Made by a program: the position numbers and the translations under genes
Part shown: piece after piece, positions 24,145 through 26,199 of the stretch
Numbering within the stretch: the stretch's first letter is position 1
Layout of the letters: each line of letters opens with the position of its first letter
The notes under the pieces: model-generated
What the model saw: only the letters and a program-made list of their open reading frames with translations
Told to the model about the DNA's origin: nothing
Database searches by the model: none
Virus record (IMG/VR): IMGVR_UViG_2619619134_000010
Strand: one strand, 5' to 3'
DNA length: 28,425 bases
DNA from: a virus
Lineage: Duplodnaviria; Heunggongvirae; Uroviricota; Caudoviricetes

Positions 24145-26199
24145 ATGTCAGACTCCAAGTGGAAAATGCTCTCCGCCATGCCCGGAGAGTTTTCAGTCAA
24201 GGTTGCCGGTGGCACGGTGGCATTTATTGAAAGCCCTTTCCGCCCTTCGGGTAATAAAGGGGGGATCACCTTCGCAGACTGCGTGATCCGCTTCAGCACG
24301 AAAGAGCCATTATGGGTAATGCCGGTATCCGGTAATCCCAGTGCAGAAATCACCAGTTCAGGCGTGACTGGCATCATTCCAATCACATCTGACGTGGCCG
24401 GAACGCTCACGCCCTCCGACTGGAATGCACCGGATAACGCCGGGCCTTCCGGTAGCACGAATGGCAGCAGTTCAGAGCCGGAATATTACTTTGTTGTCAT
24501 TCTCGCGGGTCAGTCAAATGGCATGGCCTACGGCGAGGGGCTGCCGTTACCGGATTCGTTTGACCGCCCGGACCCACGCATTAAGCAACTGGCACGCCGC
24601 AGTACGGTAACGCCCAACGGTACGTCGTGTACATACAACGACATCATTCCGGCAGACCACTGCCTGCATGATGTTCAGGATATGAGCGGGATAAACCACC
24701 CGAAAGCTGATCTGGCAAAAGGCCAGTACGGGACTGTCGGTCAGGGGTTGCATATTGCCAAAAAACTGCTTCCCTATATCCCACAGAATGCCGGGATACT
24801 TCTGGTGCCCTGTTGTCGTGGCGGGGCAGCATTCACCACTGGAGCCGACGGCTCATTCAGTGAGGCCAGCGGTGCTTCCGCTGATTCTTCACGCTGGGGG
24901 GCCGGTAAACCTCTGTATCAGGACCTGGTAAGCCGCACCAAAGTCGCGCTGGCGAAAAACCCGAAAAACAAACTTCTGGCTGTGGTCTGGATGCAGGGAG
25001 AGGCAGACCTTGCCTCAGGAAGCCAGCAGCATAATAGTTTATTCACGGCCATGGTTCAGCAGTTCAGAACTGACCTGGCTCCGCTTGCTGCGCAGTGCGT
25101 GAGTGGAAATGCCACCACGGTGCCGTGGATTTGCGGTGATACCACGTATTACTGGAAAAACGCTGGCACCGATAAATATGAGGCAGTATACGGTGGCTAC
25201 AAAGGCAAGGAAGCACAGAAAATTTTCTTTGTACCGTTCCTGACGGATGAGAATGGACAGAGCACGCCAACGAATGCTCCGGCGGAAGACCCGGATATTG
25301 TGGCTGTCGGGTATTACGGTGCAGCATCCCGAACCCAGGGCAGTTTTGTTTCGACACAGCGTGACAGCCATTTCAGCTCATGGGCACGCAGGGGCGTCAT
25401 TTCAGACCGTCTGGCCTCAGCTATTATGCTCCATGCAGGGCGCACGGCTGAACTGATGCGCGGGCAGACCGTGACACCACCGGATGAGAAGCCGTCACCT
25501 GATACACCATCAAAACCGTCCACGCCACCCGCAGACACCACGACGATGAGTACGCTATTTGCTTACCGGGCATCTGAGTCTGAAGGACGGTTGACACCAC
25601 AGGGTTGGGCTGCCGGAGGTGGCAAGGCTCAAATCGTGGATGATGCCGGAGCCAGCGGGGGTAAGGCAATGAAACTGACCAAGGAAACAGGAAGAGCCCC
25701 CTGGTACCTTGAGCATGATGCTGGTAATGGTGCGGACCTGCTGGGTAAAGGTGGTCTTGTCAGTTGTCGTTTTAAACTCGATGGCGCGCTTACGGCTAAT
25801 CAGTACGCACTGGCGCTGTACTGGCCGGTTTCTGCCCTGCCGCAAGGGGTTACTCTGGAAGGAAATGCCGGTCATAACCTGCTGGCATCGTTCTACGTAC
25901 AGAGCGATGCCACAGACCTTAACGTGATGTATCACAAAGGAAACACGGCGCAGAACACGAAGCTGGGGTCATTCGGCGCATTTAATAACGAATGGCATAC
26001 GCTGGGCTTCCGTTTTGCCGGTAACAACAGTATTGAGGTGACGCCGGTCATTGATGGTAAGGACGGGACACCATTCATGCTGTCGCAGTCTCCGGTCGGC
26101 ACGTTTACGGCAGACAAGTTGCGCGTGACCGATATCACTAAAAATGCGACTTACCCGGTACTGATTGACAGTATCGTGGTGGAAGTGAATAACGCGTAA
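24145..26199 (+). CDS. Modular carbohydrate esterase: N-terminal domain + SASA/SGNH-type acetylesterase core + Pro/Thr linker + C-terminal lectin-like domain (sialate/O-antigen O-acetylesterase-like)
   Basis: Block-I motif VVILAGQSNGMAYG and later AVVWMQGEADL resemble SASA (sialic-acid-specific 9-O-acetylesterase) / SGNH hydrolase signatures; PT-rich linker TPPDEKPSPDTPSKPSTPPADTTT; no signal peptide. Product name is inference from motifs only. Confidence 0.7.
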   Translation: MSDSKWKMLSAMPGEFSVKVAGGTVAFIESPFRPSGNKGGITFADCVIRFSTKEPLWVMPVSGNPSAEITSSGVTGIIPITSDVAGTLTPSDWNAPDNAGPSGSTNGSSSEPEYYFVVILAGQSNGMAYGEGLPLPDSFDRPDPRIKQLARRSTVTPNGTSCTYNDIIPADHCLHDVQDMSGINHPKADLAKGQYGTVGQGLHIAKKLLPYIPQNAGILLVPCCRGGAAFTTGADGSFSEASGASADSSRWGAGKPLYQDLVSRTKVALAKNPKNKLLAVVWMQGEADLASGSQQHNSLFTAMVQQFRTDLAPLAAQCVSGNATTVPWICGDTTYYWKNAGTDKYEAVYGGYKGKEAQKIFFVPFLTDENGQSTPTNAPAEDPDIVAVGYYGAASRTQGSFVSTQRDSHFSSWARRGVISDRLASAIMLHAGRTAELMRGQTVTPPDEKPSPDTPSKPSTPPADTTTMSTLFAYRASESEGRLTPQGWAAGGGKAQIVDDAGASGGKAMKLTKETGRAPWYLEHDAGNGADLLGKGGLVSCRFKLDGALTANQYALALYWPVSALPQGVTLEGNAGHNLLASFYVQSDATDLNVMYHKGNTAQNTKLGSFGAFNNEWHTLGFRFAGNNSIEVTPVIDGKDGTPFMLSQSPVGTFTADKLRVTDITKNATYPVLIDSIVVEVNNA

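What the first reader, a model, noticed from the sequence alone, without database searches (positions are those of the whole stretch)
24145..26199. Modular phage-borne carbohydrate esterase (SASA/SGNH-like core plus lectin-like C-terminal domain)
The protein has GQSNG and WMQGEAD motifs typical of sialate O-acetylesterase / SGNH hydrolases, an N-terminal ~110-aa domain, a Pro/Thr linker and a ~190-aa C-terminal domain that looks like a carbohydrate-binding module. It has no signal peptide, so release would be by lysis or virion association. It resembles prophage NanS-p-type 9-O-acetyl-sialate esterases but sits in a Mu-like tail/invertase context. Possible roles are receptor or O-antigen de-acetylation, or mucin sialic acid foraging.
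Basis: partly seen in the sequence, partly recalled or inferred. Interest (0 to 1): 0.7.

Follow-up and report, generated by a model that had tools for sequence, protein, structure and literature searches.

The report
Mu-prophage version of NanS-p esterase
This gene encodes a prophage-borne sialic-acid O-acetyl esterase of the well-known NanS-p type; what is unusual is that it sits in a Mu-like prophage and has a different, uncharacterised N-terminal module where lambdoid phages have the one that pins the enzyme to their capsid.

Summary
Residues 111-435 are a SASA/SGNH esterase, 57.5% identical to solved E. coli NanS (3PT5), with all four NanS catalytic blocks (Ser124, His409). Residues 469-684 are the DUF6645 lectin-like domain, 69% identical to the solved NanS-p C-domain (6YP6). 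Some lambdoid NanS-p alleles are 89-90% identical from residue 111 on.

The difference lies in residues 1-110. DUF1737, recently shown to anchor NanS-p on the phi24B capsid, is absent. Its place is taken by an ~80-aa all-beta domain plus a disordered linker. DNA homology to a lambdoid allele starts exactly at codon 111, which marks a domain swap.

This N-domain is under purifying selection. It occurs in five diverged lineages, always in Mu-like prophages just past the tail-fibre genes. It is related to phrog_4772, a family of stand-alone ~79-aa phage proteins, and in one prophage it is a separate gene directly upstream of the esterase.

Most likely function: de-O-acetylation of sialic acids, with release at lysis and possibly display on the virion. 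The anchoring role is inferred, not shown. Verdict: a new variant of a known kind, of moderate interest.

The parts
24145..26199 (+). Complete esterase gene (684 aa plus stop), a NanS-p-type sialate O-acetylesterase of the Mu-prophage variant
   Evidence: ORF list; Pfam SASA + DUF6645; PDB matches 3PT5 and 6YP6; phrog_143 over aa 71-684, E 7e-296
24145..24390 (+). N-terminal domain, aa 1-82: small all-beta (cupin-like) module that replaces DUF1737
   Evidence: No Pfam hit. AF2 model has strands over aa 7-79 with block pLDDT 76-89 for residues 11-70. Found in phage records only within 'inserted Mu-like phage' regions. Homologues in lineages 2-4 hit phrog_4772. dN/dS 0.04-0.23
24391..24474 (+). 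Linker 1, aa 83-110: Ser/Gly/Asp/Asn/Pro-rich, predicted disordered; the domain-swap junction lies at its 3' end
   Evidence: pLDDT <50 for aa 83-109. DNA homology to lambdoid allele L041 begins at 24475. Protein alignment A1
24475..25449 (+). Catalytic SASA/SGNH esterase core, aa 111-435. Block I GQSNG (Ser124, nt 24514-24516), block II RGGAAF (aa 225-230), block III MQGEAD (aa 283-288), block V SHFS (His409, nt 25369-25371)
   Evidence: 57.5% identity to NanS 3PT5 over 315 aligned residues. NanS blocks as listed in PMC10792757. Motif positions
25450..25548 (+). Linker 2, aa 436-468, Pro/Thr-rich
   Evidence: Composition. Length-variable among alleles in alignment A1
25549..26196 (+). C-terminal DUF6645 lectin-like jelly-roll domain, aa 469-684
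   Evidence: 68.8% identity to NanS-p C-domain crystal structure 6YP6. Pfam PF20350, E 7.4e-68
24068..24082 (+). Conserved upstream motif TGAATTTCCGCAAAA, 62 nt before the start codon; candidate regulatory site of unproven function
   Evidence: Conserved between lineages 1 and 2 in an otherwise diverged spacer (A3). An exact second copy of the degenerate pattern lies at 8106-8120, upstream of the head-protease (Mu I) gene
26214..26248 (+). GC-rich hairpin (10-bp stem, 15-nt loop) 15 nt after the stop codon; no U-run on the + strand, U-run on the - strand
   Evidence: RNA fold -21.7 kcal/mol, z = -4.3; sequence. Lies inside the tract shared with lambdoid nanS-p loci
26344..26526 (+). DUF1378 small single-pass membrane protein (60 aa), companion gene
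   Evidence: Pfam PF07125, E 9e-32. The same gene follows nanS-p in lambdoid phages and in the Mu-like loci
26562..26816 (+). DUF826 protein (84 aa), companion gene
   Evidence: Pfam PF05696, E 6e-16. Synteny in Min27 and in Mu-like loci
23487..24059 (+). Gin-type serine invertase immediately upstream (context)
   Evidence: Pfam Resolvase + HTH_7. Inverted repeats 22084-22232 / 23268-23416 flank the invertible tail-fibre segment
27534..28425 (+). com-mom operon at the right end of the Mu-like prophage (context)
   Evidence: Pfam Zn_ribbon_Com and Mom. RefSeq annotation of the homologous locus

Best explanation
The gene encodes a cytoplasmically made, signal-less sialate O-acetylesterase of the NanS-p family with three modules. 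(1) Catalytic core, shown by homology: a SASA/SGNH domain using the NanS-type Ser124-His409 pair, which removes 9-O-acetyl (and probably other O-acetyl) groups from free and mucin-bound sialic acids, as characterised NanS and NanS-p enzymes do. (2) C-terminal domain, shown by homology: the DUF6645 lectin-like jelly-roll domain, thought to bind the glycan substrate. (3) N-terminal domain, shown: the DUF1737 capsid anchor of lambdoid NanS-p is replaced by an unrelated ~80-aa beta-domain. That domain is found here only in Mu-like prophages, belongs to the phrog_4772 superfamily of small stand-alone phage proteins, and is under purifying selection. The esterase 'body' has recombined recently with lambdoid prophage alleles, and the breakpoint is at the linker. 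Inferred: the gene is expressed with the late/tail-fibre genes of the Mu-like phage, and the enzyme leaves the cell at phage lysis. Inferred: the N-domain is the Mu-phage-specific counterpart of DUF1737, an adaptor that docks the esterase on the virion; capsid or tail is not resolved. This would put de-O-acetylase activity on or around released particles in sialic-acid-rich mucus, and would secondarily feed the surviving lysogen population.
For: Enzyme identity: Pfam SASA + DUF6645; phmmer to NanS 3PT5, E 4.5e-117 (57.5% id), and to the NanS-p C-domain 6YP6, E 7e-98 (68.8% id); 66% identity to the Min27/933W-type NanS-p from aa 94 on; 89-90% identity to DUF1737-bearing alleles over aa ~111-684. 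The catalytic blocks GQSNG, RGGAAF, MQGEAD and SHFS match the NanS blocks listed in PMC10792757. NanS-p enzymes de-O-acetylate Neu5,9Ac2 and mucin glycans (PMC8065619). Domain swap: lambdoid homologues align only from aa ~94-112. The N-domain is found only in Mu-like regions. blastn homology to lambdoid L041 starts at 24475, which is codon 111, and reaches 99-100% over gene nt 1081-1350. The N-domain is a real, selected module: it has a folded beta-domain model; dN/dS is 0.035-0.23; and there are five lineages at 15-59% identity in the alignment (A5), all just past the tail-fibre/Tfa (and gin) genes of Mu-like prophages. It is related to phrog_4772: E 1e-5, 2e-4 and 6e-3 for fused versions and 1e-18 for the stand-alone one. 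Fission/fusion: in L045 the 78-aa homologue is its own gene. Its start overlaps the Tfa stop, and it is followed by TAA, an AGGGAG Shine-Dalgarno and the esterase ORF. Precedent for anchoring: the DUF1737 domain of phi24B gp84 forms hexamers on capsid hexons and the esterase is a virion protein (bioRxiv 10.64898/2026.04.10.717836). Phage Mu's own capsid carries no cement proteins (PMC11915804). No signal peptide.
Confidence: 0.75

Rival explanations
1. Purely soluble foraging enzyme. The protein is never virion-associated. The N-domain is a second carbohydrate-binding or substrate-targeting module (or an oligomerisation domain), and the enzyme simply diffuses after lysis of a fraction of lysogens. 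It de-O-acetylates mucin sialic acids so that sibling cells can catabolise them through the nan pathway.
For: The small jelly-roll/cupin-like beta fold of the N-domain is also typical of carbohydrate-binding modules. The published role of NanS-p is growth on Neu5,9Ac2 and mucin. There is no co-divergence with any structural protein. No signal peptide implies release by lysis anyway.
Against: It does not explain why the N-domain is strictly tied to the phage type while the esterase body moves between phage types. It also does not explain why relatives are stand-alone ~79-aa phage proteins (phrog_4772) coupled to tail-fibre genes. The precedent of DUF1737 as a capsid anchor in the same position points the other way.
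Confidence: 0.3
2. Infection-stage receptor-modifying enzyme. The protein is a tail accessory, docked by the N-domain to the baseplate or tail fibre. It de-O-acetylates a bacterial surface polysaccharide (O-antigen, or a K1-type polysialic acid or other capsule) to give the Mu-like phage access to its receptor.
For: The gene lies directly after the tail fibre/Tfa/gin block in all five lineages and is translationally coupled to Tfa in L045. A weak relative in Dickeya phage LIMEstone1 sits just upstream of a confirmed tail structural gene (E 0.03 only). The idea has been raised for NanS-p in the literature (PMC8065619).
Against: The catalytic and lectin-like domains are exchanged at up to 99-100% DNA identity with lambdoid prophage alleles whose product is a capsid protein and acts on host mucin sialic acids. 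Nothing here shows trimeric tailspike features. PHROG tail hits are marginal and fall within the esterase core.
Confidence: 0.15
3. The N-terminal extension is a functionless by-product of a gene fusion (loss of a stop codon between a small upstream ORF and nanS-p), and the protein behaves exactly like a DUF1737-less NanS-p.
For: The split arrangement in L045 shows that fusion needs only the loss of one stop codon. The linker is disordered.
Against: Strong purifying selection on the N-domain: for example 17 synonymous versus 3 non-synonymous changes against L024 (dN/dS 0.04), as strong as or stronger than on the catalytic core. The fusion is retained in four diverged lineages.
Confidence: 0.05

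Closest known systems
[not shown]
   Same: Same SASA esterase core and DUF6645 C-terminal domain: 66% identity to the Min27 type and up to 89-90% to other alleles. Same lack of a signal peptide. Same downstream companions DUF1378 and DUF826. Prophage-borne in E. coli/Shigella.
   Different: No DUF1737 capsid-anchor domain; it has an unrelated ~80-aa beta-domain plus linker instead. It sits in a Mu-like transposable myovirus between gin and com/mom, not in a lambdoid phage between Q/stx and the holin. It is about 35-40 aa longer.
Chromosomal E. coli NanS (YjhS), PDB 3PT5
   Same: Catalytic domain 57.5% identical, with all four NanS active-site blocks conserved.
   Different: 3PT5 is a single-domain chain that matches only aa 110-428 of this protein. 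From my own knowledge, not tested here, NanS is exported with a signal peptide and belongs to the nanCMS operon. The protein here has no signal peptide and carries extra N- and C-terminal domains in a prophage.
DUF1737 (PF08410) capsid-decoration anchor
   Same: Same position (N-terminus, before a flexible linker and the esterase). Both domain families occur mostly or often as small stand-alone phage proteins as well as fused to the esterase.
   Different: No sequence similarity. DUF1737 is one helix plus three strands of ~55 aa, whereas this domain is all-beta and ~80 aa. Its binding partner is unknown.
phrog_4772 (stand-alone ~79-aa phage proteins, function unknown)
   Same: Homologous to the N-domains of lineages 2-4 and to the split 78-aa ORF next to the esterase in L045.
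   Different: Here the domain is fused to an enzyme. The window's own copy is too diverged to reach significance against the PHROG profile directly.

Membership tests
NanS-p (prophage sialate O-acetylesterase) | SASA/SGNH catalytic domain homologous to NanS with conserved blocks I, II, III and V | tested here: met
   Pfam PF03629 above gathering. 3PT5 E 4.5e-117. GQSNG122, RGGAAF225, MQGEAD283 and SHFS408 against the NanS blocks.
NanS-p (prophage sialate O-acetylesterase) | C-terminal lectin-like jelly-roll domain (DUF6645) | tested here: met
   PF20350 E 7.4e-68. 6YP6 E 7e-98, 68.8% identity.
NanS-p (prophage sialate O-acetylesterase) | N-terminal DUF1737 domain | tested here: not met
   No PF08410 hit at E<=1 or E<=10 on the isolated N-terminus. 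DUF1737-bearing homologues align only from aa ~94-112 on.
NanS-p (prophage sialate O-acetylesterase) | Prophage-encoded, no signal peptide | tested here: met
   Mu-like prophage context. Hydropathy shows no signal peptide or TM segment.
NanS-p (prophage sialate O-acetylesterase) | Location in a lambdoid late operon downstream of Q (and stx) and upstream of the lysis cassette | tested here: not met
   Here the order is gin - esterase - DUF1378 - DUF826 - com - mom, against Q/stx - esterase - DUF1378 - DUF826 - holin in lambdoid phages.
NanS-p (prophage sialate O-acetylesterase) | Esterase activity on Neu5,9Ac2 and O-acetylated mucin glycans | not testable with these tools
   Inferred from 57-90% identity to characterised or solved relatives. 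Needs an enzyme assay.
SGNH-hydrolase-fold esterases | Nucleophile Ser in block I and His in block V in catalytic geometry. In NanS a main-chain oxygen replaces the Asp, so it is a Ser-His pair. | tested here: inconclusive
   The residues are conserved at sequence level. The 3D check failed because the full-length AF2 model had mean pLDDT 34.
phrog_4772 small phage proteins | Significant match of the N-domain to the PHROG profile | tested here: inconclusive
   The window copy has no hit to phrog_4772. Lineage 2 (59% identical to the window) scores E 6e-3, lineage 3 E 1.2e-5, L044 E 1.8e-4 and the L045 stand-alone ORF E 1.1e-18. Membership is therefore by transitive homology only.
Capsid decoration / virion adaptor proteins | Physical presence on the virion and binding to a structural protein | not testable with these tools
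   There is only an analogy to DUF1737 and the linkage to one phage type. No fold match to known decoration proteins.

The most novel reading that the evidence does not exclude
The N-domain (and with it the phrog_4772 family) is a previously unrecognised virion-docking module. E. coli prophages of two unrelated architectures, lambdoid podo/siphoviruses and Mu-like myoviruses, would then display the same freely recombining sialate-esterase 'cargo' on their particles through exchangeable anchors specific to each phage type. The split gene pair in L045 would represent the non-covalent ancestral state. This would make mucus-directed enzymatic decoration a general, modular trait of gut temperate phages rather than a peculiarity of Stx phages.
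Probability: 0.3. Interest if true: 0.65.

Novelty: new variant of a known kind. Interest (0 to 1): 0.45.

Why it matters
NanS-p esterases are regarded as fitness or virulence accessories of Shiga-toxin phages, and a 2026 preprint reports that their DUF1737 domain pins them to the capsid. This locus shows that the same enzyme body circulates between lambdoid and Mu-like prophages of E. coli, while each phage type keeps its own N-terminal module. If the Mu-type module is also a virion anchor, two things follow. It would define a new family of small phage adaptor or decoration proteins (phrog_4772). It would also show that display of a mucin-modifying enzyme on particles has been selected independently on different virion architectures, which is directly testable with induced particles from the roughly 0.5% of complete E. 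coli genomes that carry it. If it is not an anchor, the finding is simply another NanS-p allele with a different leader domain. RefSeq names the gene only as 'DUF6645 domain-containing protein' in all the complete E. coli genomes listed; other source names include 'sialate O-acetylesterase'.

Tried and rejected
1. The full-length AlphaFold2 model from the 16-sequence alignment A1 failed (mean pLDDT 34). It was not used, so no 3D check of the active site was possible.
2. The afdb50 fold library was unavailable.
4. An exhaustive phmmer of aa 1-109 against 1.84 billion representatives found only self-fragments and one truncated relative, P0126. Word-indexed searches with the N-domain found only E. 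coli fragments.
5. Two genome-contig scans found nothing, probably because the collection holds one genome per species.
6. tblastn of the lineage-3 N-domain against phages found only the known Mu-like inserts.
7. The sigma-70 promoter and terminator scan around the gene was at or below shuffle expectation, so no promoter is claimed.
8. The shared upstream motif was tested window-wide. Only the two founding sites match exactly, and 2-mismatch hits are at chance level, so it is reported as a lead only.
9. A gene-by-gene divergence comparison meant to find a structural protein co-diverging with the N-domain gave no clear partner.
10. Rangel et al. 2016 and Rangarajan et al. 2011 could not be read. 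The catalytic blocks were taken from PMC10792757 instead.
11. The idea that the esterase-DUF1378-DUF826 trio moved as one recent DNA cassette was rejected. DNA homology to the lambdoid locus ends inside DUF1378, and the region downstream of the esterase has no close lambdoid DNA match. The trio is conserved as synteny, not as a single recent transfer.
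Full report
**1. The observation**

The ORF 24145-26199 (+) exists exactly as described, with an ATG start and 684 codons. So are RGGAAF at aa 225-230 and SHFS at aa 408-411. Residues 436-468 form a Pro/Thr-rich linker. No segment is hydrophobic enough to be a signal peptide or a membrane helix. Pfam finds SASA (PF03629, aa 117-312, E 4.7e-13) and DUF6645 (PF20350, aa 533-650, E 7.4e-68) but not DUF1737. NCBIfam has no model for the protein. PHROGs places aa 71-684 in phrog_143, of unknown function.

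**2. What the two large domains are**

- A phmmer search against PDB sequences gives two very strong, non-overlapping matches.
- aa 110-428 match E. coli NanS/YjhS, the 9-O-acetyl-N-acetylneuraminate esterase (3PT5, E 4.5e-117). Identity is 57.5% over 315 aligned positions.
- aa 469-683 match the crystallised C-terminal domain of NanS-p (6YP6, E 7e-98, 68.8% identity).
- The NanS active-site blocks tabulated for 3PT5 are GQSNA, RGGSAF, MQGEFD and R-x-SHFS. In that structure a main-chain oxygen, not an Asp, acts as the acid (PMC10792757). All four blocks are conserved here, which puts the nucleophile at Ser124 and the base at His409.
- The protein is 66% identical to the Min27/933W-type NanS-p from aa 94 onwards. 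It is 89-90% identical to other DUF1737-bearing NanS-p alleles over about 85% of its length.
- NanS-p enzymes are experimentally established Neu5,9Ac2 and mucin O-acetyl esterases. Their C-domain is a lectin-like jelly roll proposed to bind carbohydrate (PMC8065619 and PMC10462455).
- On these grounds the enzymatic assignment is secure by homology, though it has not been assayed.

**3. Context**

- The window is the late region of a Mu-like prophage of E. coli. Pfam identifies the Mu portal, MuF, Mu-like protease I, major head protein gpT, sheath, tape measure, DNA-circularisation protein, GpP/gp44 and baseplate J.
- These are followed by the tail fibre, Tfa and an invertible segment flanked by inverted repeats at 22084-22232 and 23268-23416.
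- Next come a Gin-type invertase (23487-24059), the esterase, DUF1378 (26344-26526), DUF826 (26562-26816), a reverse-strand orphan ORF, and com-mom (27534-28425).
- RefSeq annotation of identical or near-identical loci agrees and names the gene only 'DUF6645 domain-containing protein'.
- The N-domain sequence is found in 32 of 5,426 complete E. coli genomes, and in 28 of them at 80% coverage or more. Some genomes carry up to three copies.

**4. What is different: the N-terminus**

- Among 348 phage records with a homologue, almost all of them Stx lambdoid phages, the alignment starts only at aa ~94-112.
- The first 109 residues are found in phage records only inside two 'inserted Mu-like phage' regions, at 59% identity.
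- In the protein database about 22 clusters of 678-691 aa share this N-terminus and lack DUF1737. Directly below them in the ranking come 647-650-aa DUF1737-bearing proteins.
- One of these, P0034, lies in a textbook lambdoid late region: Q, N6 methyltransferase, esterase, DUF1378, holin.
- At DNA level, homology between the window and that lambdoid locus begins at 24475, the first base of codon 111 (EPEYY). It runs to 26477, inside DUF1378, at 87% overall and 99-100% over 270 nt of the gene.
- The esterase body has therefore been exchanged recently between lambdoid and Mu-like prophages, with the 5' breakpoint at the linker. The N-terminal module stays with the phage type.

**5. The N-domain is a real domain**

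- AlphaFold2 on a three-lineage alignment gives an all-beta domain with strands spanning aa 7-79 (block pLDDT 76-89 for residues 11-70), followed by a disordered linker at aa 83-109.
- Within lineage 1 it evolves under purifying selection at least as strong as that on the catalytic core. An example is 17 synonymous against 3 non-synonymous differences, dN/dS 0.04.
- Five lineages were found in all:
  - Lineage 1 is the window's own type.
  - Lineage 2 is 57-62% identical (LC727881 and IMG/VR loci).
  - Lineage 3 is P0126, at 29% identity.
  - L044 carries a fused 784-aa version.
  - L045 carries a split version.
- In every case the gene follows the tail-fibre/Tfa (and usually gin) genes of a Mu-like prophage.
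- The N-domains of lineages 2, 3 and L044 match phrog_4772, a family of ~79-aa stand-alone phage proteins of unknown function (E 6e-3, 1.2e-5 and 1.8e-4).
- In L045 the homologue is a separate 78-aa gene (E 1.1e-18, full profile length). Its ATG overlaps the Tfa stop codon. It is followed by TAA, an AGGGAG ribosome-binding site and an esterase ORF that lacks the N-domain.
- This natural fission/fusion pair argues that the small protein and the esterase work together.

**6. Mechanism**

- Shown by homology: a Ser-His SGNH esterase for O-acetylated sialic acids, carrying a glycan-binding C-domain.
- Shown directly: there is no export signal, so the protein can only leave the cell by lysis or on particles.
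- Inferred, late expression. In L045 the module is translationally coupled to the tail-fibre assembly gene.
- In the window a 15-nt motif (TGAATTTCCGCAAAA, 24068-24082) is conserved between lineages 1 and 2. It recurs exactly upstream of the head-protease gene at 8106-8120.
- That motif is only a lead. The pattern was derived from those two sites, and relaxed matches occur at chance frequency.
- Inferred, function of the N-domain. A 2026 preprint shows that phi24B gp84, a NanS-p, is an abundant virion protein. Its DUF1737 domain forms hexamers plugged into capsid hexons, and the enzyme is later clipped off.
- The Mu-type domain occupies the same position, also has stand-alone relatives, and is specific to one phage type while the cargo is shared. 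I therefore consider a virion-docking role the best single hypothesis, at a probability of about 0.3-0.4.
- Phage Mu's own T=7 capsid carries no cement proteins. The site of attachment could equally be the tail.
- Against the docking idea: there is no fold similarity to DUF1737, there are no virion data, and no structural protein clearly co-diverges with the N-domain. Between the window phage and Mu_JNE082796 the N-domain is 59% identical, the capsid protein 90%, baseplate proteins 93-98%, sheath 71% and DUF2635 66%.

**7. Comparison with known families and novelty**

The protein works like NanS-p and shares two of its three modules. It fails two features of the family as usually described: the DUF1737 N-terminus and the lambdoid Q-to-lysis location. 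It is best filed as a new architectural variant of a known kind. No paper in the searchable library mentions a Mu-like NanS-p or this N-domain.

**8. Verdict**

The enzyme itself is ordinary. The interesting part is the phage-type-specific N-terminal module and the evidence for modular exchange, which turns 'is the esterase displayed on virions?' into a testable question for a second, unrelated phage architecture. Interest is 0.45.

Noticed in passing
window 1-246: The window opens with the 3' end of an IS4-family transposase gene (Pfam DDE_Tnp_1, E 8e-14), ending about 190 nt before the lysozyme ORF (435-956). In a related prophage, gp16 and Mor lie upstream of the lysozyme gene, so this copy of the Mu-like prophage may be interrupted or truncated at its early/late junction.
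   Followed up: partly
window 26344-26816; L039 5905-6370; L041 8089-8596: The small membrane protein DUF1378 and DUF826 follow the esterase both in lambdoid phages, where they precede the holin, and in Mu-like prophages, where the lysis genes are about 25 kb away. They therefore appear linked to the esterase rather than to the lysis cassette. Their function is unknown. They were not found after the esterase in L044.
   Followed up: partly
window 8106-8120 and 24068-24082: The motif TGAA-N-T-NN-CGCAAAA occurs exactly twice in the window, upstream of the head protease (Mu gene I homologue) and upstream of the esterase. It is conserved in lineage 2 upstream of the esterase. It may be a late-activator site.
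   Followed up: partly
window 22084-22232 / 23268-23416: Inverted repeats of 86 and 50 nt (94% and 84% complementary) flank a ~1.0-1.2 kb invertible tail-fibre segment next to the Gin-type invertase. Several related loci (L003, L009, L010, L014, L017, L023-L025) lack gin altogether but keep the esterase.
   Followed up: partly
window 26214-26248: A strong GC-rich hairpin (-21.7 kcal/mol, z = -4.3) lies just after the esterase stop codon. It has a U-run only on the minus strand, so it looks like a terminator for leftward transcription or an mRNA 3' stabiliser, not a terminator of the esterase transcript.
   Followed up: partly
window 26984-27277 (- strand): A 97-aa orphan ORF on the opposite strand between DUF826 and com has no Pfam family. 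It is present in only a subset of lineage-1 loci, so it is a variable accessory gene in the right-end region.
   Followed up: no
window 27466-27490: A palindrome containing two GATC sites (AATCGATCGACAAAAACGATCGATT) lies just upstream of com. From memory, this resembles the Dam-methylation-controlled regulatory region of the Mu mom operon.
   Followed up: no
L002 11420-12472 (LC727881 Mu-like insert); also L044 11785-12837: In some Mu-like relatives the mom gene after com is replaced by a 350-aa ORF that by eye looks like a C5-cytosine DNA methyltransferase. No family search was run on it. If correct, it is a swap of the anti-restriction DNA-modification module.
   Followed up: no
L040 vs window: Between two otherwise 90-98% identical Mu-like phages, the tail sheath (71%), DUF2635 (66%), protease/scaffold I (74%) and an HI1506/FluMu_N-like protein (81%) are mosaic outliers, as is the whole block from tail fibre to DUF826.
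   Followed up: no
E. coli genomes: Some complete genomes (e.g. AST198) carry up to three copies of the N-domain esterase gene, consistent with multiple insertions of the transposable Mu-like phage.
   Followed up: no
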